Source of the DNA: Candidatus Scalindua sp.
GTDB lineage: Bacteria; Planctomycetota; Brocadiia; Brocadiales; Scalinduaceae
Direction: 5' to 3'
DNA: 32,000 nucleotides
Assembly: GCA_021776915.1 (NCBI GenBank)
Contig: JAIQZU010000039.1
Span: 89,720 to 121,719 of the forward strand
This document shows, piece after piece, positions 28 through 8,294 of this stretch. The notes under the pieces are model-generated. The model worked only from the letters and a program-made list of their open reading frames with translations. It ran no database searches and was not told the DNA's origin. The position numbers were made by a program, and so were the translations under genes. The stretch's first letter is position 1. Each line of letters begins with the position of its first letter.

Positions 28-366
28 TTATATTTCAGCCTCTTTTTCTGCACGTTTAATTCTACCACAAAATTCTTCAATAGTGTTACTTTCTAATGCT
101 ATCTGAGTAAAAACTTTTAATGGCAAATTTCTCATGTCCTTAGGTGTATTAAATTCATTTATTGAAGACTGCAAATGGATTCCTAACTTTGTAATATTGT
201 CAAACACGCTCTCTTTATATAATACTGTCCCCATAATACCCAAATTTGATTTTTTTATTAAAACACCAGACTGAGCTATACTTATGTATATAGGGTCACC
301 ACTCAGTAAATCGACTCTTGACCAACGCTGAGCATCAGTATCTTTAAACCTTATCAATTTACTCAT
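28..366 (-). CDS. hypothetical small protein (113 aa from MSKLIRF...)
   Basis: The ORF track gives 28..444. The internal ATG at 366 is preceded by AAGGAG (revcomp of 371-380 region, taaggagaaataatATG), whereas the upstream extension runs through a GC-rich hairpin. No recognisable motif. Confidence 0.5.
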   Translation of the reverse strand: MSKLIRFKDTDAQRWSRVDLLSGDPIYISIAQSGVLIKKSNLGIMGTVLYKESVFDNITKLGIHLQSSINEFNTPKDMRNLPLKVFTQIALESNTIEEFCGRIKRAEKEAEI

Positions 367-413
367 ATTATTTCTCCTTATTATATTTTGTTGTTTGTGT
401 CTAACGACAATAT

Positions 414-441
414 CAGCCGCCGCGCTTTTTGCGGTCGGCTG
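414..441. other. GC-rich stem-loop (CAGCCGCCGC-gcttttt-GCGGtCGGCTG) between two minus-strand genes
   Basis: A 10-bp stem with one bulged T and a 7-nt loop, read directly. It is conspicuous in AT-rich surroundings. On the + strand it is followed by CATTTTCT; there is no U-tract on the - strand. Confidence 0.3.
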
Positions 442-523
442 CATTTTCTGGTTAGAAAATATTTTAATCTATCCTCTAGTTTTTGAATAATGAATATTTA
501 AGAAGCGGCCCTAGGCTTGCCCT

Positions 524-946
524 TTATGTCTCCCTTCTTTCTTGCCCATTATTTTTGTCCAATGTGGTTACTATTGATTTAAGATGATCAATTTGTTGAA
601 TCATTAGCTTGGTATCATGATGAGAAGTTTTAAGAGACCAAAAAAAGCCTAGAATAGCAATAATAAATGCTGCACAAGACACGAAAACGCTAACATAAAA
701 AAGCTTTTGTTGGAGTATGTCTTGGCGGCGTCTAATCTCCATAGAAAATATTTGGGCCCTTGTACTATCATGAAGAATAGATGGAAAGGCTGTTTGGGTA
801 GTTGCCTGATTTATAACTGCTGAGTTGAAATGATGTACAGCCCTTTCTAAATCAATATTACTCAATTCTTTTGGGTTTCTTCGCTCTTGAGCGGAGAGAG
901 TATTAGTAAAACAAATAAATAAAATAATAACCACTATGATTTTCAT
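524..946 (-). CDS. hypothetical exported/membrane protein (N-terminal signal peptide, one C-proximal TM helix)
   Basis: MKIIVVIILFICFTNTLSAQ is a signal-like N-terminus. The hydrophobic stretch FYVSVFVSCAAFIIAILGFFW is a likely TM helix. GAGGGA Shine-Dalgarno lies 7 nt upstream of the ATG at 946. Confidence 0.55.
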   Translation of the reverse strand: MKIIVVIILFICFTNTLSAQERRNPKELSNIDLERAVHHFNSAVINQATTQTAFPSILHDSTRAQIFSMEIRRRQDILQQKLFYVSVFVSCAAFIIAILGFFWSLKTSHHDTKLMIQQIDHLKSIVTTLDKNNGQERRET

Positions 947-1147
947 ATAACTATCCCTCTAATAACTCAATATGTCAATAAGGACAACCTTCGCATATAA
1001 CTCTACCCTGTCAAGATTTTTTAATCTGCCACAATTGTTTCCAAGCCTTATTCTTTTCCTTATTTTATTTCTCTAACGCTGGCTGAGGAGTTTGAAAACC
1101 GGAAGAGTATTCACCGGTCAGCTCGATACTTTTGTTATAAATTAATT

Positions 1148-1648
1148 TTATTTCTTTAAATGACCATCAAGTGCTGCGTCAATTTGACTAAGAACAATTT
1201 TGCGTACAAGACAAACTTTTTCTTTTGATATTATTTTTCTAGAGGTGCTTTTGCAACTAAAGCACAAATATGAATCTTTTAATTCTAGCATTTCGTGTTG
1301 ATGTTTAAGGCATAAAGGAGTTGGATTTATTTCACGTGTCATTTTATCAATTTTCCATAGTAAACCTTCTTCTTCAATAAAAACATAATCTTTTAGATTG
1401 GAAATGCTATATGCAAGATTATTTTTTGTTTTGGCACAAAACCATACATACAGTACCAGAACCAAGACGATGGCTACCCATAGTGGGGTTGGTGATTGGA
1501 GTGTATTTATTAGTCCAATCCATAAGCTTTGGAAAAAAAGATAAACGCTGCCACTACCAACAATTAACGAAGCAAGTATTATTGCAATTATTGCATTATG
1601 AGAATCGGAAAAAAACTTTTTAATGTATGCTAACAATAAGTTTTTCAT
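1148..1648 (-). CDS. hypothetical membrane protein with C-terminal Cys/His cluster
   Basis: Two predicted TM helices (IIAIILASLIVGSGSVYLFF, LWVAIVLVLVLYVWF). The C-terminal CLKHQH...CFSC looks zinc-ribbon-like. The track start at 1651 is TTG, and the adjacent ATG at 1648 is preferred. No clear SD. Confidence 0.5.
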   Translation of the reverse strand: MKNLLLAYIKKFFSDSHNAIIAIILASLIVGSGSVYLFFQSLWIGLINTLQSPTPLWVAIVLVLVLYVWFCAKTKNNLAYSISNLKDYVFIEEEGLLWKIDKMTREINPTPLCLKHQHEMLELKDSYLCFSCKSTSRKIISKEKVCLVRKIVLSQIDAALDGHLKK

Positions 1649-1802
1649 CAATGGTTTATATGGCGGTTACTATGCTTAACTATTTTAACAATTAATATTA
1701 TTACGGTATTTATAACAGCACAATAAGTGGAAAACTTGTCAGCTTATTAAAACTTATCTGTCAACTACCCTGTGAATCCGCTTTGAATGAGCTTCCGGTT
1801 TT

Positions 1803-2028: not shown

Positions 2029-3495
2029 TTAACTTACTGCAACACCTTTTTCTGACGGTACGGTTACGGCACTGCTCTTGTACCAGTCCTGGTAATAATC
2101 TCCTGAATCGTATAATTTATGCAGATTTTCCAGTACCTGCTCAAATACCTGTATCCAGTCAGAACCAACCCTGAAGCCGAACATGGCGTTGCGCTTGCCG
2201 TGGGTTGTACTGCCAATAGTTTGAAGTGATTTCCTGAATCTCATTCTAAGGTTGTCACCGGCATAAAGATGGTCGTACATATATTGCATACCGTCAATGA
2301 AATTCTCCAGGGACATATCAACAAGTCTGTGAACCACATGCGCAGTATCATAATACTTCCAGTCTTCAGGATAATTCTTACGGAATATCCTCTTTTCAGA
2401 ATCCAGCCTGTGGTAAAGAGCAGTCTTAGGAAACGGGCAATTGATGCCAAAGGTAAGAACGTCAATATTATTTTCCAGTACAAACTCTGTCATTCTTTTG
2501 AACGAATCTTTGTCATCACCGTCTGCTCCCAGGACTATTGATCCCCAGACAACAAGGCCATGATCATGGATTTTTTGAACGCAGTCATAATAGTTGTCAG
2601 CTCCAAGCCTTAAATTTGTCGTTTTATTCATCTTCTCCAGAACAGCCTCATTTGTCGATTCTATTCCGCAAAGAAATCCAAAATTTCCACTCTTTGCCAT
2701 CAGGTCAAGTACCTCTGCATCCTTTGATATATTGAGCGCGGTAAATCCAAGCCAGTCTTTTTTAATGCCCCTTTCTATCATACCACGAAAGAGGGCTTTT
2801 GCCCTGTTGGCAGAGTTTTTACTATGTCCATAGAAATTATCTTCCGCAAACATCAGGCCCTTGTAGTCTGTTGCTTCCATCTCGTCCAGGACGTCTTCGT
2901 ATGGCCTCTCTCTGTATTTCTTTCCCTGAAAGGTTGGTACGCTGCAGAAATCGCAGTAATTTGGACAACCTTTCGTTGTGACAATAGAGGAAAACTTGTA
3001 ATCATATTTCTTTTTCAGGAGTTCCCTATTGGGAAAGACATGCTTCATCTCTGACAGGCCTGGAAGCCCGCCTTCGTACTTCTTTTTGAGTTCGCCATTT
3101 TCAAAATCTTTAATGACTTGCGGCCACAATGTTTCGGCCTCTCCGATAAAAATTGCATCTACATATTTTGAAGCTTCTTCAGGCACTACTGATGCATGTA
3201 TACCACCCATGACTACGGTCATACCTTTTTTCCTGCAGGCTTCGGCTATCTTGTAAGCTCTTGACACTTGGTATGTAACAGAAGTAATACAAACCATATC
3301 CACAGGCTCAAATGTAATTTCTCCGTTATCATCAAGGGCCAGTTCTATATTTTCATCGATTACGTCAAACTCCCAGTCACCCGGCGTAAGGGCTGCTATG
3401 TATGCCAGGTTTAAAGGCATTTGAACTATGACAGATATACTCTCCTCACCATGTCGCCCCGGTGGATGTGGATTGATAAGCATCATTTTTCTCAT
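2029..3495 (-). CDS. B12-binding (class B) radical SAM enzyme
   Basis: The N-terminal Rossmann-like cobalamin-binding region (VCITSVTYQVSRAYKIAEACRKKGMTVVMGGIHAS) is followed by the radical SAM cluster motif C177-PNY-C181-DF-C184. A strong SD (GGAGGAGG) is present. The ATG overlaps the upstream stop as ATGA. Confidence 0.9.
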   Translation of the reverse strand: MRKMMLINPHPPGRHGEESISVIVQMPLNLAYIAALTPGDWEFDVIDENIELALDDNGEITFEPVDMVCITSVTYQVSRAYKIAEACRKKGMTVVMGGIHASVVPEEASKYVDAIFIGEAETLWPQVIKDFENGELKKKYEGGLPGLSEMKHVFPNRELLKKKYDYKFSSIVTTKGCPNYCDFCSVPTFQGKKYRERPYEDVLDEMEATDYKGLMFAEDNFYGHSKNSANRAKALFRGMIERGIKKDWLGFTALNISKDAEVLDLMAKSGNFGFLCGIESTNEAVLEKMNKTTNLRLGADNYYDCVQKIHDHGLVVWGSIVLGADGDDKDSFKRMTEFVLENNIDVLTFGINCPFPKTALYHRLDSEKRIFRKNYPEDWKYYDTAHVVHRLVDMSLENFIDGMQYMYDHLYAGDNLRMRFRKSLQTIGSTTHGKRNAMFGFRVGSDWIQVFEQVLENLHKLYDSGDYYQDWYKSSAVTVPSEKGVAVS

Positions 3496-4952
3496 TTTTC
3501 CTCCTCCTGATTATTTAAAATCATATTTGCTGCCTTCCAGCCGGATGAGACAACAGCACATATCCCAGGCCCCGGATTAGTCCAGTGTCCTGCAAGAAAA
3601 AGATTTTTGAAGGGCGTCGTATGCTGAAGTCTGTTTGACCATGTCTGGTCAACGGTAACAGCCCAGCCATAAGCAGCGCCTTTTGAATTATGCGTATAAC
3701 GATATAGAGTCTTTGGCGTAGCGGCATCAATCACTTCTATATGGTCCTGAATGTCAGGTGTAAAATTCTCAAGGTAGCTTATTGTGTGTTCTTTCATTTT
3801 ATTCTTAAAGGATGCCCAATCTTCTACATCGTCATAACTTTCTCTTAATGAGACAACAATAGAAATTATTTGTTTTTTATCAGGCGCCAGACTTGAATCT
3901 ATATCAGTTGGAACGGATATATAAAACCAACCATTATTGGAAAAGCTTATGTCATTAGATGTGTGATAGAAACCCCTTTTCAGGCCTTTTAAGTCGACCT
4001 TACTATCAAGACCAAGGTATAACAAGAAGAATGATACACTCTCTTTCATGCTCTCGATCTTGCGAAGGTAGGAATCGTCAGCAACGTCTCCTTCCATCAA
4101 ACAGAAAAATGTTTGTCGGGGGTCAATGTTTGACACAAAAAAATCTGCATCAATTTTTTTCCCCTTTTCCGTTGCAACTCCTTTTGCAATGCCATCCTCT
4201 GTGAGCAGGCTCTTTACTTTTGAAGATAGCATAATGTGGCCGCCATAGTCAATAAATTTCTGAGTGATTGCATCGGTAAAATTCTGGGTTCCACCAACAG
4301 GGAAATAAGCCCCGTCCTTCAGATAATTTACCAGCATCTGACACATACCAATGGCCGAAACTTCGTGAGGTGGTGAACCAATATACCCCCACTGTGCAGA
4401 CAGTACCATCTTAAGCTGCTCATCGGTAAAGAAATTATCCAGCATTTCCTTATATGTAAGGTTTTGATACTTGATAACCATCTTATGTCTTTCAGCGCTG
4501 AAAGTGACTCTGTACAATCCTATGAACTCTTTAAAGAATAACGATATGTTTTCGTTTTCAGATGGAAAACGTTCCTTCAGCAGATCAATATAATCGTCAA
4601 TTTCTGCAGGTATATCTATGGAAAATGAAGGGAAATTTATGCTGTCCATAGGATCAAGCCGCAAAAAATTAATTTTTATATCAAGTTCCTTAAGGCACCT
4701 GCCAACTACACTCCATTTACCACACCCACCAATGTGGTGGACAGCCGCATCAAAAATAAAACCTTTTCTCTTGAAAGAAGTACAATAACCTCCGGGTATG
4801 CTATGCTGCTCTATAATCAGCACTTTCTTCCCACTCTTTGCCAGGAAGGTTCCGCAGATTAAACCGGCAATTCCGGCTCCCAGTATGATTATATCGTACT
4901 TAGATTTTATTTCGGATTTATCAATGGAAAAGTTATGCATGGAAACAAACAC
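3492..4952 (-). CDS. FAD-dependent oxidoreductase, phytoene desaturase (CrtI)/amine-oxidase-like
   Basis: Dinucleotide-binding DIIILGAGIAGLICGTFLAKSGKKVLIIEQHSIPGG (GxGxxG...E) at the N-terminus. Length and the C-terminal LFLAGHWTNPGPG motif are typical of the CrtI family. The track start at 4952 is GTG; an alternative ATG lies at 4940. Confidence 0.85.
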   Translation of the reverse strand: MFVSMHNFSIDKSEIKSKYDIIILGAGIAGLICGTFLAKSGKKVLIIEQHSIPGGYCTSFKRKGFIFDAAVHHIGGCGKWSVVGRCLKELDIKINFLRLDPMDSINFPSFSIDIPAEIDDYIDLLKERFPSENENISLFFKEFIGLYRVTFSAERHKMVIKYQNLTYKEMLDNFFTDEQLKMVLSAQWGYIGSPPHEVSAIGMCQMLVNYLKDGAYFPVGGTQNFTDAITQKFIDYGGHIMLSSKVKSLLTEDGIAKGVATEKGKKIDADFFVSNIDPRQTFFCLMEGDVADDSYLRKIESMKESVSFFLLYLGLDSKVDLKGLKRGFYHTSNDISFSNNGWFYISVPTDIDSSLAPDKKQIISIVVSLRESYDDVEDWASFKNKMKEHTISYLENFTPDIQDHIEVIDAATPKTLYRYTHNSKGAAYGWAVTVDQTWSNRLQHTTPFKNLFLAGHWTNPGPGICAVVSSGWKAANMILNNQEEEK

Positions 4953-4959
4953 TATGAAG

Positions 4960-6195
4960 TTATGAATATTTTGAGATGATTATGGATGAAATGTTGCCAG
5001 TATCAGAAAAGGAGTTTACAAGTACGTTTTTGACTTCTGATTCCCTGCTATTGTCAGGTACACAATCCAGATTGCACTCTTCATCTTTTTCCTGATAGTT
5101 TATTGTCGGGGGAATGATACCATTATTAATTGCTAATACACCGGCAACACATTGTATGACCCCCGATGCATCAAGGCATTCTCCTGTCATTGACTTTATG
5201 GCGCTCACAGGAACCTTCTCAGCATGATCACCAAAATAATCTTTAATAATTCCTGCCTCCATTTTATCACCGGTCACACTGGAATTCGCACATGCAGATA
5301 TATAAGAAATGTCCTCACCGCTAAGACCGGCATCTTTCATTGCCAGAGAAATACATCTTACACCCTGTGACGTATCAATATTTTCATGTGAAATCTTATC
5401 TGGATTAAACGTACTCCCGTACCCTTTTATTTCAGCATAGATATTCGCATTTCTTTCCAGTGCGTCTTCAAGCCTCTCTATCATCAGCAATGCAGACGCC
5501 TCACCAATTATAAACCCATTGCGTCTTTTATCAAATGGCGCAGAGATCTCAATACCACCATTCCTGCTCCCTGATAATACTCCTGACCTGTAAGCACCCC
5601 AGAATATATCAGCAGTCAACCCATGAGCCCCGCCGGCCAATACTGCCTTTCCTCTGCCCAATCTTAAAAAGTCAGAAGCGTAAATAATAGCATCCAGCCC
5701 ACTGGCCACTCCTGTAGATATAGTGGAATTCAAACCGGTCGCTTTACAGAAAATAGAGGCTCTGCTTGCAGGTGCATTCAGGACGGTATTTGGAAAATCC
5801 ATGGGATTAACAAAGGTAGGTCCCTCCTGTAATCCTTCCAGGTCAAATGAACTGATACTGCCTATACTGCCATAGGTTGAACCTATTACAATTCCCAGTT
5901 CTTCCTCACTGTAAATTTCGTGGGTAACTTTAGCGTCATCCATTACCAGCTTTGCAGCCGAAGATACCAATAAAGATGTCCTGTCTATGTGGCGTATACC
6001 TTTTTTACCTAAATACTCCTTTGCATCAAAATCTGATATTTCACCTGCTTTCTTACTTTTATATTTAGAGACATCAAACAGCGTAATATCTTTTATTCCG
6101 GAAACACCGTTTGTCAGATTATTCCAGAACGCATCCTTATTTACACCGATTGGTGACAATATACTTATTCCAGTTATAACCAGACGGCTATTCAT
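4960..6195 (-). CDS. beta-ketoacyl synthase-like protein lacking the catalytic triad (chain-length-factor-like partner)
   Basis: Thiolase-fold KAS-II-like over its full length. At the positions aligning to the neighbouring KS residues C163/H296/H333 it has V163 (STGVASG), C302 (SACANSS) and E339 (KSMTGEC). Confidence 0.85.
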   Translation of the reverse strand: MNSRLVITGISILSPIGVNKDAFWNNLTNGVSGIKDITLFDVSKYKSKKAGEISDFDAKEYLGKKGIRHIDRTSLLVSSAAKLVMDDAKVTHEIYSEEELGIVIGSTYGSIGSISSFDLEGLQEGPTFVNPMDFPNTVLNAPASRASIFCKATGLNSTISTGVASGLDAIIYASDFLRLGRGKAVLAGGAHGLTADIFWGAYRSGVLSGSRNGGIEISAPFDKRRNGFIIGEASALLMIERLEDALERNANIYAEIKGYGSTFNPDKISHENIDTSQGVRCISLAMKDAGLSGEDISYISACANSSVTGDKMEAGIIKDYFGDHAEKVPVSAIKSMTGECLDASGVIQCVAGVLAINNGIIPPTINYQEKDEECNLDCVPDNSRESEVKNVLVNSFSDTGNISSIIISKYS

Positions 6196-6202
6196 AATAT
6201 TT

Positions 6203-7423
6203 CTAACCCGTAAACTTTTTTAATATAAGACTGCTGTTATTACCGCCAAAGGCGTACGCGTTATTCATGGCAATATCGACCTGCATTTCACGTTTTACAT
6301 TTGGAACAAAATCCAAGTCACACTCAGGGTCTTTAGTTTCATAGTTTATAGTTGGTGGAACTACGCTTTCCTTTATGGCCAACGCACATGCAATCGCTTC
6401 TATAGCGCTTGCGGCTCCCATTGTGTGTCCAATCATTGATTTTATGGAGCTTATTGCCAGCTTTTTCGCATGTTCACCAAAAACCCTCTTTATAGATATC
6501 GTCTCAGCCTTATCGTTAGCAACTGTGCCCGTACCATGCGCACTCACATATTGCACATCTTCCGGTTTAATCCTGGCACTTTTCAAGGCTTTTTTCATTG
6601 CCGATGTAACACCATTTCCCTCCGGATGCGGAATTGTTATATGGTAACCATCGCAGCTCAGGCCGTATCCCAGGATTTCAGCATATATATTTGCGTTCCT
6701 CGCCAGTGCACCTTCCAGGGATTCCAGTAACAGCATTCCGGCGCCTTCACCAACTAACAACCCCTTTCTATCTTTGTCAAAAGGCTGGCAAATCTCAGGA
6801 GCAATAGCGTTAAGCCTGCTGAAACCAACAAAAGCTACCTTAGAAAACGGATCAGAGCCTCCGGCCAGCATTACATCAGCCCTTCCCAGCTTTATCAGGT
6901 CACATGCATAGCCAATAGCGTAGTTTCCTGCAGCACATGCAGTAGGGATTATTGTACTTGGTCCCTTAAGGCCAAATTCAATAGATATATTAGACGGCAT
7001 ATTAACACACGGATGCCTTTGAAACAGGACAGGGTCTACGCTCTCTTCTCCCTTTTCAAATCTTATATAATTTACCTTTTCGAGGATTTGAATCTCACCT
7101 GCGGTTGTTCCAATCGAAACTCCGGTTCTTTCAGGATCAATATTATCTAAACCAACCTTAGAGTCATCGATGGCAAGTTTTGCGGCCGCTATGGCAAACT
7201 GAGAACCTTTACCGATTTCCCGATCTGATCCACTACTTATATAATCACTGTAATTGAAATCTTTAACGAAACAGCCTCTATGTACCTTGAAGACGGATGT
7301 GTCAAATGCCGTGATCTCAGATACACCGGATGTGCCGGAAATTAATGCATCCCAGAACACATCATTCTTATTCCCTATAGGAGAAATTACACCCACACCG
7401 GTAATTACAATTCTTTTGTCCAT
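6203..7423 (-). CDS. fabF: beta-ketoacyl-ACP synthase II family enzyme (catalytically complete)
   Basis: Active-site Cys in IPTAC163AAGNYAIG. His residues in SAH296[11 protein letters not shown] and KSMIGH333[19 protein letters not shown]-terminus. Confidence 0.9.
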
Positions 7424-7451: not shown

Positions 7452-7901
7452 TCAGCCTGTCAATGACTCTTTATCGGCAACACCAAAGCTCAATGTAGCT
7501 TTTGCGACAACCTTCTCTCCCACTTTAGCTACACCCTTAACTATTGCCGCGCTCGAAATAATCTTCTCAGTATTAATTTCTAAAATAAGTTGGTCGCCGG
7601 GGAAAACCGGCTTTGAGAAACGGACGTTCGCTGATGCCAGCAAAAAAACTTTGTCCTTATCCTTCTCAGTATCAAAGCTCTTTTTAAAAAGTATGATCGC
7701 GGCTTGTGCCAGGGCTTCTATAATTAAAACGCCCGGCATTATGGCAAAATCAGGGAAGTGACCGGCGAAGAAAGGCTCATTGCCAGAAATGTTCTTTAAA
7801 CAAACAATTCTGTTTTCTTTTTGAAACTCAATAACTTTGTCAATAAATAAGAACGGATATTTTTGCGGAACCAACTCTCTTACTTCCTCAAAGCTTAACA
7901 T
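7452..7901 (-). CDS. fabZ: 3-hydroxyacyl-ACP dehydratase, FabZ-like hot-dog fold
   Basis: [14 protein letters not shown]48[14 protein letters not shown]62ALAQ (catalytic His/Glu signature). 149 aa. Confidence 0.9.
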
Positions 7902-7985
7902 TTATAACAACCTTTCGTCTTAATTGTTATAGCCTGACCGCTTCCACGATTTATGGGACAGGCATCTATGAAGAAGTATTATACA

Positions 7986-8249
7986 CTATTTTTTCTCATT
8001 TTCTTCAAGGGTAGACCTTGTCATTTCAATTGTGGCATTCAGTGACGTAATGTCTACAAGTTTCTCTTCCGGAATTTGAACCTTAAATTTCTTTTCTATA
8101 AGAGCAAGAATTTCCAGTGCCAACAAGGAATCTATCTCCAAATCCTTAAAAAAATCAGCATCTCTTTTCTCCCATATTTCATCCTCATCCAGCTCCGTTA
8201 CCTCTGCTACAATTGCAGTAATATCTTTTTCTAAGTTCTCTATAGACAA
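7986..8249 (-). CDS. acyl carrier protein (dedicated, operon-leading)
   Basis: 87 aa, acidic, with the phosphopantetheine attachment motif LEIDS41LLALEI. Start codon is TTG at 8249, 7 nt downstream of AAGGAGG. Confidence 0.9.
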   Translation of the reverse strand: MSIENLEKDITAIVAEVTELDEDEIWEKRDADFFKDLEIDSLLALEILALIEKKFKVQIPEEKLVDITSLNATIEMTRSTLEENEKK

Positions 8250-8294
8250 TATCTTACCTCCTTAAGAAAGCATATAGAAATCTAAACATATGTA

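What the first reader, a model, noticed from the sequence alone, without database searches (positions are those of the whole stretch)
2029..4952. Translationally coupled flavin desaturase and B12-radical SAM pair
Seen in sequence: the CrtI-like gene's TGA and the radical SAM gene's ATG share the tetranucleotide ATGA (3492-3495), and a strong GGAGGAGG lies inside the desaturase 3' end. This implies stoichiometric co-production. Established knowledge: CrtI-type enzymes introduce conjugated double bonds. Class B radical SAM enzymes catalyse methylations and other difficult C-C bond formations on unactivated carbons. Inference: the pair may act consecutively on one substrate, with polyene formation followed by radical C-C coupling or methylation. 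That is the step a cyclobutane-forming pathway would need. The desaturase itself has no SD and two possible starts (GTG 4952, ATG 4940), 7 or 19 nt after the KS' stop, which suggests coupling along the whole operon.
Basis: partly seen in the sequence, partly recalled or inferred. Interest (0 to 1): 0.6.

Follow-up and report, generated by a model that had tools for sequence, protein, structure and literature searches.

The report
Known anammox ladderane-candidate enzyme pair
These two overlapping genes are the Scalindua copies of the flavin enzyme and the B12-type radical enzyme that end the published, still unproven "ladderane lipid" operon of anammox bacteria, so the finding is real but already known, and the 4-base overlap itself is a recent, non-conserved accident.

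Summary
The CrtI-like gene (3492-4952, minus strand) ends in a TGA that shares ATGA (3492-3495) with the start of the B12-binding radical SAM gene (2029-3495). GGAGGAGG lies at 3500-3507, and the flavoenzyme has GTG/ATG starts 7 and 19 nt after the dead-ketosynthase stop, with no Shine-Dalgarno (SD) sequence.

The genes are the Scalindua orthologues of Kuenenia kuste3607/kuste3608. These are the last two genes of anammox "Cluster I" (kuste3603-3608), a ladderane candidate in print since 2009.

The overlap is not conserved. Most Scalindua orthologues stop at a TAG inside TAGGAGGA, 11-13 nt before the ATG. The window has CAG there, which adds five codons. What is conserved is a tight junction (-4 to +16 nt) with a strong SD, and the fixed order PDH (the CrtI-like "phytoene dehydrogenase" homologue) then radical SAM.

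That order also occurs in complete six-gene cassettes of Acidobacteriota, "delta-proteobacterial", Spirochaetales and non-anammox Planctomycetota MAGs. Five of these six genomes were searched for hydrazine synthase and lack it. The literature calls the cluster exclusive to ladderane producers. This scan had already noted the same thing on other DNA (Kuenenia, Brocadia).

The chemistry remains unknown. "Stoichiometric co-production" is not supported.

The parts
2029..3495 (-). B12-binding-domain (class B) radical SAM enzyme, orthologue of kuste3608
   Evidence: Pfam hits: Radical_SAM 58.4 bits, B12-binding 40.9 bits (cut-off 32.1), DUF4070 borderline. The CX3CX2C cysteines C177/C181/C184 are invariant. 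It is 78% identical to the Kuenenia protein and 81% to the Brocadia protein. The AF2 model (pTM 0.80) matches CysS, TokK, MgmA, AprD4, TsrM and OxsB.
3492..4952 (-). CrtI-family FAD enzyme ('PDH'), orthologue of kuste3607. The start is GTG 4952 or, more likely, ATG 4940.
   Evidence: Pfam Amino_oxidase 80 bits plus NAD_binding_8. NCBIfam crtI_fam scores 162.6 bits, below the 238.1 cut-off. Sequence search of PDB finds 4dgk CrtI at 1.8e-24. The AF2 model (pTM 0.88) matches 4rep CrtD at TM 0.82.
3492..3495 (-). ATGA stop/start overlap between PDH and rSAM
   Evidence: Seen directly in the sequence. It is a derived state: relatives have a TAG stop five codons earlier.
3500..3507 (-). Shine-Dalgarno sequence GGAGGAGG for the rSAM, inside the PDH 3' end
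   Evidence: A GGAGG/GGAGA element 6-12 nt before the rSAM ATG is present in nearly all anammox loci.
4960..6195 (-). Dead ketosynthase (amxFabFmut / kuste3606 type)
   Evidence: Pfam ketoacyl-synt N and C domains. The catalytic triad is replaced: C to V, H to C, H to E.
6203..7423 (-). Active ketosynthase (amxFabF2 / kuste3605 type)
   Evidence: FabF-like at 472 bits. The Cys-His-His triad is intact.
7452..7901 (-). FabZ-type dehydratase (amxFabZ / kuste3604 type)
   Evidence: TIGR01750 fabZ 155.9 bits.
7986..8249 (-). Acyl carrier protein (amxACP / kuste3603 type), first gene of the operon
   Evidence: Pfam PP-binding 53.6 bits. AAGGAGG lies 7 nt before its TTG start.

Best explanation
The two genes are the Scalindua orthologues of kuste3607 and kuste3608. 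The first is a CrtI-family flavoenzyme (PDH). The second is a cobalamin-type class B radical SAM enzyme. Together they are the last two genes of the six-gene anammox 'Cluster I' operon: amxACP, amxFabZ, an active ketosynthase, a dead ketosynthase, PDH and rSAM.

Shown here:
- Orthology to the Kuenenia genes.
- Operon architecture.
- Fold class of both proteins.
- An ancient, cross-phylum conservation of the PDH-then-rSAM gene order with a very short junction and a strong SD for the rSAM.

Inferred:
- Both enzymes act on an ACP-tethered chain built by the KS/dead-KS pair with FabZ.
- The flavoenzyme changes the unsaturation pattern, by desaturation or isomerisation.
- The rSAM abstracts a hydrogen through the 5'-deoxyadenosyl radical and forms or rearranges a C-C bond. 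I put roughly 35% on ring closure, 25% on methylation, and the rest on other chemistry.

The ATGA overlap in this genome is a by-product of a recent stop-codon loss. It is not a designed stoichiometry device.
For: Domain and family hits are.

Orthologues are 78-81% identical (rSAM) and 58-61% identical (PDH) in Kuenenia, Brocadia and Jettenia, with the same six-gene order in every anammox locus long enough to show it, apart from one Anammoxibacter contig.

The host genome encodes hydrazine synthase HzsA.

The KS' triad is dead, as in amxFabFmut.

Foldseek places the rSAM among class B Cbl-rSAMs, including CysS and TokK, which were crystallised with pantetheine-linked substrates. It places the PDH with CrtD/CrtI.

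PDH-adjacent rSAMs form one clade (SH-aLRT 91) that holds anammox and non-anammox members. The PDH orthologue of each of six non-anammox genomes lies next to such an rSAM.

C-terminal comparison is.

Literature: PMC2649909, PMC4790861 (gene table), PMC10139942, bioRxiv 10.64898/2026.05.19.726425, PMC13459092, and PMC13598231, which lists 'ladderane synthase' among the non-methylating Cbl-rSAMs.
Against: No experiment links any Cluster I protein to ladderanes (PMC10139942; the 2026 preprint).

kuste3607 did not replace CrtI in a lycopene assay, and expressing the cluster in E. coli gave no new fatty acids (PMC4790861).

Neither polyunsaturated nor cyclopropyl fatty acids have been found in anammox cells. 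amxFabZ prefers C6-C8 chains (PMC10139942).

The same cassette occurs in genomes without hydrazine synthase, so its product may not be ladderane-specific.

Most characterised class B rSAMs are methylases.

A B12-binding-like domain does not prove cobalamin use: AprD4 is among the best fold matches and is grouped with the 'unrelated enzymes' in the B12-rSAM review PMC12931638. That it works without cobalamin is my own recollection, not checked here.

Confidence: 0.85

Rival explanations
1. The rSAM is an ordinary cobalamin-dependent C-methyltransferase acting on the ACP-bound chain. On this reading the pair makes a methyl-branched or otherwise decorated unsaturated lipid, not cyclobutanes directly.
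For: The best structural neighbours are methylases: CysS, TokK, MgmA and TsrM. The best NCBIfam partial hits include PhpK, HpnR and the MCR glutamine methylase. Methylation is the majority chemistry of class B rSAMs (reviews PMC9204698, PMC12931638). The cassette is present in non-anammox bacteria.
Against: All family scores are far below their cut-offs. Identity to the solved methylases is only 12-19%. BchE and HpnJ, which are non-methylating, score equally well. Ladderane fatty acids carry no methyl branches (PMC13459092).
Confidence: 0.25
2. The flavoenzyme is not the polyene-forming desaturase. The KS/dead-KS pair, a ketoreductase and FabZ, with no enoyl reductase, would already give an enoyl or polyenoyl-ACP. 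The CrtI-like enzyme would then isomerise or reduce double bonds, as CRTISO and RetSat do, before the radical step.
For: NCBIfam carotenoid isomerase scores almost as high as crtI_fam: 146 against 163 bits. The compact non-anammox cassettes contain ACP, DH, KS, CLF-like, PDH, rSAM and FabG, and no enoyl reductase was recognised in them. The KS/dead-KS pair behaves like a KS/CLF heterodimer (bioRxiv 10.64898/2026.05.19.726425). kuste3607 lacks phytoene desaturase activity (PMC4790861).
Against: There is no direct evidence. The best fold match is a desaturase, CrtD. Polyenes have not been detected in anammox cells (PMC10139942).
Confidence: 0.2
3. The pair has nothing specifically to do with ladderanes. 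It belongs to a widespread orphan type II FAS/PKS-like lipid pathway shared by several phyla, and ladderane rings are made by other enzymes.
For: Complete cassettes, with 40-47% identical PDH and 54-60% identical rSAM, occur in Blastocatellia, other Acidobacteriota, 'delta proteobacterium', Spirochaetales and two non-anammox Planctomycetota MAGs. The five of these genomes that were searched lack HzsA. antiSMASH-type 'ladderane' BGCs are reported in many phyla (PMC9902471, PMC11968836).
Against: The cassette is present in all anammox lineages sampled and is highly expressed there (PMC10139942, PMC4790861). The anammox proteins form their own tight clade. Nobody has looked for ladderanes in the other carriers.
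Confidence: 0.3
4. The ATGA overlap enforces 1:1 production because the two proteins form a stoichiometric complex.
For: The overlap exists. The junction is always short. The gene order is conserved.
Against: The overlap is absent in most orthologous loci and arose here by a TAG-to-CAG change. The strong, conserved SD allows de novo initiation. Four-base overlaps are common in this genome. No PDH-rSAM fusion was seen among the 120 best rSAM homologues, none of which carries an Amino_oxidase domain.
Confidence: 0.1

Closest known systems
Anammox 'Cluster I', Kuenenia stuttgartiensis kuste3603-3608 (Rattray 2009 PMC2649909; Javidpour 2016 PMC4790861; Dietl 2023 PMC10139942; bioRxiv 10.64898/2026.05.19.726425)
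   Same: Same six genes in the same order. The rSAM is 78-79% identical and the PDH about 58-60% identical. The KS' is dead in both. The host is an anammox bacterium.
   Different: Only details differ. This Scalindua lineage lost the PDH stop codon, which adds five residues and creates the ATGA overlap. Kuenenia and Brocadia have a TAA stop 4-8 nt before the ATG.
CrtI / CrtD carotenoid desaturases (PDB 4dgk, 4rep)
   Same: Same FAD Rossmann plus substrate-domain fold, with TM 0.82 to 4rep. The GxGxxG motif is present. Sequence E-value is 1.8e-24 to 4dgk.
   Different: Identity is about 20%. The protein scores below the NCBIfam crtI_fam cut-off. It has its own conserved motifs: AVHHIGG, QWGY, RGFY, YGW and GHWTxPGPG. 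The Kuenenia orthologue does not desaturate phytoene (PMC4790861). The genomic context is ACP/ketosynthase, not isoprenoid.
Cobalamin-dependent class B radical SAM enzymes with solved structures: CysS (9n1b), TokK (7kdy), MgmA (9ccb), TsrM (6wte), OxsB (5ul3)
   Same: N-terminal Rossmann B12-type domain followed by a CX3CX2C radical SAM barrel, with Foldseek probability 1.0. CysS and TokK were solved with pantetheine-linked substrates, which fits an ACP-bound substrate here.
   Different: Identity is 12-19% and TM 0.53-0.64. There is no extra cysteine cluster. The C-terminal helical domain is borderline DUF4070, as in the BchE/HpnJ group. The chemistry is unknown.
kuste2802-2805 module (AcpS, radical SAM, FabF, non-canonical FabB)
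   Same: The window's genome carries this module 19 kb upstream on the same contig, with an rSAM 51% identical to the one studied here. In some non-anammox MAGs the two modules are contiguous.
   Different: It has no PDH partner. Its rSAM belongs to a different orthologous group. Here it is followed by an OYE/FadH-type flavoenzyme, a crotonase and FabG.
NCBIfam TIGR04072 'rSAM_ladder_B12' (lipid biosynthesis B12-binding/radical SAM protein)
   Same: It is the best-scoring NCBIfam model and has the same domain layout.
   Different: The score is 86.9 bits against a cut-off of 360. The window's protein is not a member, so that model describes a different B12-rSAM family.

Membership tests
Anammox Cluster I (kuste3603-3608) | Gene order ACP - FabZ - active KS - triad-less KS - CrtI-like PDH - B12 radical SAM on one strand | tested here: met
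   The same order is seen in every anammox locus long enough to show it, apart from one Anammoxibacter contig.
Anammox Cluster I (kuste3603-3608) | Orthology of the two proteins to the Kuenenia and Brocadia proteins | tested here: met
   rSAM is 78% identical to Kuenenia stuttgartiensis and 81% to Brocadia. PDH is 58-61% identical. The anammox clade has SH-aLRT 100.
Anammox Cluster I (kuste3603-3608) | The host is an anammox bacterium (hydrazine synthase present) | tested here: met
   HzsA domain hit of 83 bits in an 806-aa ORF of the same genome. The nearest loci are named Candidatus Scalindua.
Anammox Cluster I (kuste3603-3608) | The cluster is exclusive to ladderane producers, as claimed in PMC10139942 | tested here: not met
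   The same cassette occurs in Acidobacteriota, 'delta', Spirochaetales and non-anammox Planctomycetota MAGs. The five searched for HzsA lack it. This concerns the claim in the literature, not the window's membership.
Phytoene desaturase family (NCBIfam TIGR02734 crtI_fam) | Score above the curated cut-off | tested here: not met
   162.6 bits against a cut-off of 238.1.
Phytoene desaturase family (CrtI fold) | FAD-binding GxGxxG motif and CrtI/CrtD-type three-domain fold | tested here: met
   G25/G27/G30 are invariant. Foldseek gives 4rep at TM 0.82 and E 1e-33, and also finds 4dgk.
Phytoene desaturase family (activity) | Converts phytoene to lycopene | not testable with these tools
   In the literature, the orthologue kuste3607 failed to replace CrtI in E. 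coli (PMC4790861).
Class B (cobalamin-dependent) radical SAM | CX3CX2C [4Fe-4S]/SAM motif | tested here: met
   C177-x3-C181-x2-C184, invariant in 17 homologues.
Class B (cobalamin-dependent) radical SAM | N-terminal B12-binding Rossmann domain | tested here: met
   PF02310 at 40.9 bits, above the 32.1 cut-off. The fold matches CysS, TokK, TsrM and OxsB.
Class B (cobalamin-dependent) radical SAM | Actually binds and uses cobalamin | not testable with these tools
   AprD4, a close fold match, is grouped with 'unrelated enzymes' in the B12-rSAM review PMC12931638. That it lacks cobalamin is recalled, not checked. Reconstitution with UV-vis/EPR is needed.
TIGR04072 rSAM_ladder_B12 | Score above the curated cut-off of 360 bits | tested here: not met
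   86.9 bits.
BchE / HpnJ non-methylating Cbl-rSAMs | Score above the curated cut-offs (481 and 578 bits) | tested here: not met
   76 and 84 bits. Only the general architecture and the borderline DUF4070 tail are shared.

The most novel reading that the evidence does not exclude
PDH followed by rSAM is an ancient two-gene module of a multi-phylum, ACP-dependent KS/CLF-like lipid pathway.

The anammox loci look like fragments of one ancestral supercluster. These loci are Cluster I, the kuste2802-2805 module and a third stand-alone B12-rSAM. The supercluster is still contiguous in 'delta-proteobacterial' MAGs as ACP-DH-KS-KS'-PDH-rSAM-rSAM-rSAM-KS-KS'-ECH-FabG. Each of the three tandem rSAMs there is orthologous to one of the three anammox groups.

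If this is right, one of two things follows. Either cyclobutane or related strained-ring lipids exist outside anammox bacteria, or the pair performs a more general step and ladderane specificity lies elsewhere. In both cases the non-anammox cassettes give the field new sources of soluble enzymes and possibly organisms in which genetics can be done.
Probability: 0.5. Interest if true: 0.6.

Novelty: already known. Interest (0 to 1): 0.3.

Why it matters
How ladderanes (concatenated cyclobutanes) are made is a real, long-standing open question, and this enzyme pair is the field's prime suspect. The finding as written only rediscovers that suspect and repeats the published hypothesis.

- The overlap taken as a sign of stoichiometric coupling is a lineage-specific accident.
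- The robust signal of a functional link is the PDH-then-rSAM adjacency, which is conserved across phyla.
- The cassette is not exclusive to anammox bacteria. This weakens the main comparative argument for its role and also offers new experimental material.

The third point had already been reached by this scan on Kuenenia and Brocadia DNA.

Tried and rejected
- **Promoter/terminator scan.** It gave no more promoter-like sites than shuffled sequence and no terminator on the minus strand, so it is uninformative.
- **Membership in TIGR04072 'rSAM_ladder_B12', BchE, HpnJ, PhpK or HpnR.** All were rejected because scores are 4-8 times below the cut-offs.
- **Profile search of PDB sequences.** It gave spurious pentatricopeptide-repeat hits to one short helix, residues 229-256. 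These were ignored and the fold search was used instead.
- **L085 as a PDH-less counter-example.** This Planctomycetota Bin8 locus has KS-KS'-rSAM without PDH. It was rejected as a counter-example because the same genome has a complete ACP-FabZ-KS-KS'-PDH-rSAM-FabG cassette about 300 kb away.
- **A second PDH (kuste3336 type) in this genome.** None was found; the only other hit is 23% identical.
- **PDH-rSAM fusion proteins.** None was seen among the 120 best rSAM homologues.
- **Reading the chemistry from sequence or fold.** This was not possible. The nearest solved enzymes include methylases, a dehydratase and a ring-contracting enzyme, all at 12-19% identity.
Full report
**1. The observation**

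The minus strand of the window carries six consecutive ORFs:

| Gene | Coordinates | Key evidence |
|---|---|---|
| ACP | 7986-8249 | PP-binding domain |
| FabZ | 7452-7901 | FabZ family |
| Ketosynthase (KS) | 6203-7423 | intact Cys-His-His triad |
| Dead ketosynthase (KS') | 4960-6195 | triad replaced by Val, Cys, Glu |
| CrtI-like flavoenzyme (PDH) | 3492-4952 | Amino_oxidase, NAD_binding_8 |
| Radical SAM (rSAM) | 2029-3495 | Radical_SAM, B12-binding 40.9 bits over a 32.1 cut-off, borderline DUF4070 |

Domain assignments come, and the triad check.

The sequence reads ...AAT AAT CAG GAG GAG GAA AAA TGA, with the rSAM ATG at 3495-3493. The stop and the start therefore share ATGA at 3492-3495, and GGAGGAGG lies at 3507-3500.

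The KS' stop is at 4960-4962. GTG 4952 and ATG 4940 follow it by 7 and 19 nt, and no purine-rich element precedes either. Every coordinate in the finding is right.

**2. Is the overlap special?**

It is not. A crude count in the same genome finds 89 ATGA junctions, and 133 NTGA junctions, between open frames of at least 150 aa.

More to the point, the overlap is not conserved. I fetched 80 related loci from species-representative genomes and scored the PDH-stop/rSAM-start geometry in 67 of them:

- Only 8 have the -4 overlap.
- The closest Scalindua relatives (rSAM 92-98% identical) read AAT AAT TAG GAG GAT AAn AAA ATG. Their PDH stops at a TAG that is part of TAGGAGGA, 11-13 nt before the ATG.
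- Brocadia, Kuenenia and Jettenia mostly have TGGAGGTAA followed by 4-8 nt and then ATG.

The window has CAG where its relatives have TAG. That extends the PDH by five residues (QEEEK) up to the next in-frame TGA.

The protein databases agree. About 80 of the 120 best PDH homologues end ...ILNN*. Only one 90%-identity protein cluster (38 member sequences) shares the extension.

What is conserved is a very short junction (-4 to +16 nt in almost all loci) and a GGAGG-type SD 6-12 nt before the rSAM ATG.

Within the window's operon only the ACP (AAGGAGG) and the rSAM have a strong SD. KS, KS' and PDH have none and FabZ has only a weak one. This pattern suggests that rSAM translation is boosted on its own. 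It does not suggest a 1:1 lock to PDH.

For the PDH start, ATG 4940 is the codon shared with the nearest relatives, several of which have no start codon at the GTG position. Deeper Scalindua lineages, Brocadia and Kuenenia use an ATG 2-7 nt after the KS' stop. The tight KS'-PDH junction without an SD is therefore a general feature.

**3. What it is**

The rSAM is 97% identical to metagenomic Scalindua proteins, 81% to Brocadia and 78% to the Kuenenia stuttgartiensis protein. The genome encodes hydrazine synthase subunit A. All anammox genera sampled keep the order ACP-FabZ-KS-KS'-PDH-rSAM: Scalindua, Brocadia, Kuenenia, Jettenia, Loosdrechtia, Anammoxibacter, Subterrananammoxibius and deep Brocadiia.

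This is the published 'Cluster I', kuste3603-3608. In that cluster kuste3607 is annotated as a phytoene desaturase and kuste3608 as a SAM radical enzyme (PMC4790861, Table 2; PMC2649909).

[quoted passage not shown] The 'type a' route, desaturation followed by radical cyclisation, is reviewed in PMC10139942 and PMC13459092. A 2026 PNAS paper even lists 'ladderane synthase' among the non-methylating Cbl-rSAMs (PMC13598231).

The same papers stress that no experiment links any of these proteins to ladderanes.

**4. The proteins**

*PDH.*
- It has the GxGxxG FAD motif and a set of family-specific invariant motifs (AVHHIGG, QWGY, RGFY, YGW, GHWTxPGPG).
- The AF2 model (pLDDT 86, pTM 0.88) matches the carotenoid desaturase CrtD (4rep) at TM 0.82, and also CrtI (4dgk).
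- By sequence it hits 4dgk at 1.8e-24.
- It scores below the curated crtI_fam cut-off (162.6 against 238.1 bits) and nearly as well on the carotenoid-isomerase model.
- kuste3607 does not desaturate phytoene in E. coli (PMC4790861).
- It is therefore a distinct CrtI-superfamily branch. Its reaction could be desaturation, isomerisation or reduction, and this is open.

*rSAM.*
- It has an invariant CX3CX2C (C177/C181/C184) and no further conserved cysteines.
- Its model (pLDDT 79, pTM 0.80) matches class B enzymes: CysS, TokK, MgmA, TsrM and OxsB. It also matches AprD4. All matches are at 12-19% identity.
- CysS and TokK were solved with pantetheine-linked substrates, which fits a carrier-protein-bound substrate here.
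- It is not a member of TIGR04072 'rSAM_ladder_B12' (86.9 against 360 bits), nor of BchE, HpnJ, PhpK or HpnR.
- Fold and sequence cannot tell methylation from ring formation.

**5. Context beyond the finding**

The same contig carries a paralogous module 19 kb upstream of the window. Its genes are AcpS, a B12-rSAM 51% identical to the one studied, KS, dead KS, an OYE/FadH-type Fe-S flavoenzyme, a crotonase and FabG. Its first four genes are the kuste2802-2805 cluster of PMC4790861. There is no second PDH in the genome.

Outside anammox bacteria I found complete cassettes ACP-DH-KS-KS'(dead)-PDH-rSAM in these genomes:

| Source | Loci |
|---|---|
| Blastocatellia MAG | L074 |
| Two other Acidobacteriota MAGs | L004/L005, L081 |
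| Two 'delta proteobacterium' MAGs | L075, L076 |
| Spirochaetales MAG | L083 |
| Two Planctomycetota MAGs | L006/L086, L089 |
| JGI metagenome contig | L003 |

In these cassettes the PDH is 39-47% identical and the rSAM 54-60% identical to the window's proteins. The KS' triad is dead in the seven cassettes that were aligned.

Five of these genomes were searched for HzsA, and none has an orthologue. One has a weak haem-domain hit only.

In several of them a second rSAM, and in the delta MAGs a third, follow directly, and then come KS-KS'-(ECH)-FabG.

A maximum-likelihood tree of 38 rSAMs resolves three orthologous groups. Each holds both anammox and non-anammox members:
- The PDH-adjacent group (24 rows, SH-aLRT 91; the anammox clade within it has support 100).
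- A second group, which includes a stand-alone rSAM of some Brocadiales. This group is absent from the window's genome.
- The kuste2803-type group.

In the delta MAGs the three tandem rSAMs fall one into each group. The separate anammox loci therefore look like pieces of one ancestral cluster.

The PDH-then-rSAM adjacency is old and stable. This is far stronger evidence for a functional link than the overlap. It also contradicts the statement that the cluster is 'encountered exclusively' in ladderane producers (PMC10139942).

That 'ladderane-type' BGCs are called by antiSMASH in other phyla is known (PMC9902471, PMC11968836). [quoted passage not shown]

Earlier reports of this scan on Kuenenia and Brocadia DNA reached the same two conclusions (e1-2529764, e1-2627287). 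I reproduced them independently here.

**6. How it most likely works**

Shown: orthology, architecture, fold classes and the conserved adjacency.

Inferred: the KS/dead-KS heterodimer, together with FabZ and a ketoreductase encoded elsewhere, builds a short ACP-bound enoyl chain. The preprint characterises the KS/dead-KS pair as KS/CLF-like, and amxFabZ prefers C6-C8 chains (PMC10139942). The flavoenzyme then adjusts the unsaturation, and the rSAM uses the 5'-deoxyadenosyl radical, possibly with cobalamin, to make or rearrange a C-C bond.

My odds for the rSAM reaction are about 35% ring closure or rearrangement, 25% methylation and 40% other or unknown.

Published evidence against the simple polyene route:
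- No polyunsaturated intermediates have been found.
- Expression in E. coli gave no product.
- amxFabZ prefers short chains.
- Labelling patterns favour separate synthesis of the linear and ladder parts (PMC10139942).

**7. Verdict**

Novelty: already known. Interest is low to moderate, because the underlying question is important but this finding does not move it. The comparative results are the useful residue, and the scan already holds them from other genomes. They are the derived overlap, the cross-phylum PDH-rSAM module and the fragmented supercluster.

Noticed in passing
outside the window: G000:C33:69983-78164 (L001:7984-16165, + strand), 19 kb upstream of window position 1: A paralogous module sits here: AcpS, a B12-rSAM (51% identical to the window's), KS, dead KS, a 675-aa OYE/FadH-type Fe-S flavoenzyme, a crotonase and FabG. 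The first four genes are the kuste2802-2805 cluster. The reductase, crotonase and FabG tail may supply the steps that Cluster I lacks.
   Followed up: partly
L075:5144-18573 and L076 ('delta proteobacterium' MAGs): One contiguous cluster reads ACP-DH-KS-KS'-PDH-rSAM-rSAM-rSAM-KS-KS'-ECH-FabG, with a fourth B12-rSAM downstream. Upstream lie KS, ACP, 3-hydroxyacyl-CoA dehydrogenase, ECH, KS and TetR. The three tandem rSAMs are orthologous to three separate anammox rSAM groups.
   Followed up: partly
L004, L081, L089 (Acidobacteriota; Planctomycetota Bin8): A minimal seven-gene version, ACP-DH-KS-KS'-PDH-rSAM-FabG, with no enoyl reductase recognised in it. The two of these genomes that were searched (L081, L089) each carry a single PDH orthologue. 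This could be a tractable source of the enzymes.
   Followed up: partly
L077-L080, L082, L084, L087: A third anammox B12-rSAM group (54-58% identical) stands alone, with no recognisable FAS neighbours, in deep Brocadiales and some Brocadiaceae. The window's Scalindua genome has no copy.
   Followed up: no
window 7901-8260, 7423, 6195, 4940-4952, 3495: Within the operon only the first gene (ACP; AAGGAGG before a TTG start) and the last gene (rSAM; GGAGGAGG) have a strong Shine-Dalgarno. KS, KS' and PDH have none and FabZ has only a weak GAAAGG.
   Followed up: partly
L021, L024, L058, L065 (KS'/PDH junction); L018 (PDH/rSAM junction): A few anammox MAGs have 60-313 nt inserted between KS' and PDH. 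In one (L018) the PDH ORF ends 241 nt before the rSAM, which may be a frameshift or an assembly error. Tight coupling along the operon is therefore usual but not universal.
   Followed up: no
window 28-1651 (minus strand): Three small ORFs downstream of the rSAM (167, 140 and 138 aa) have no Pfam or NCBIfam match. I did not check whether they belong to the operon.
   Followed up: no
G005:C22:730220-730903 (Planctomycetota PNC17 genome): A 1068-aa ORF has a weak match to the C-terminal part of HzsA and to the HZS_alpha domain (34.7 bits). It is not an HzsA orthologue, but it is an unexplained relative in a genome that carries the cassette.
   Followed up: no
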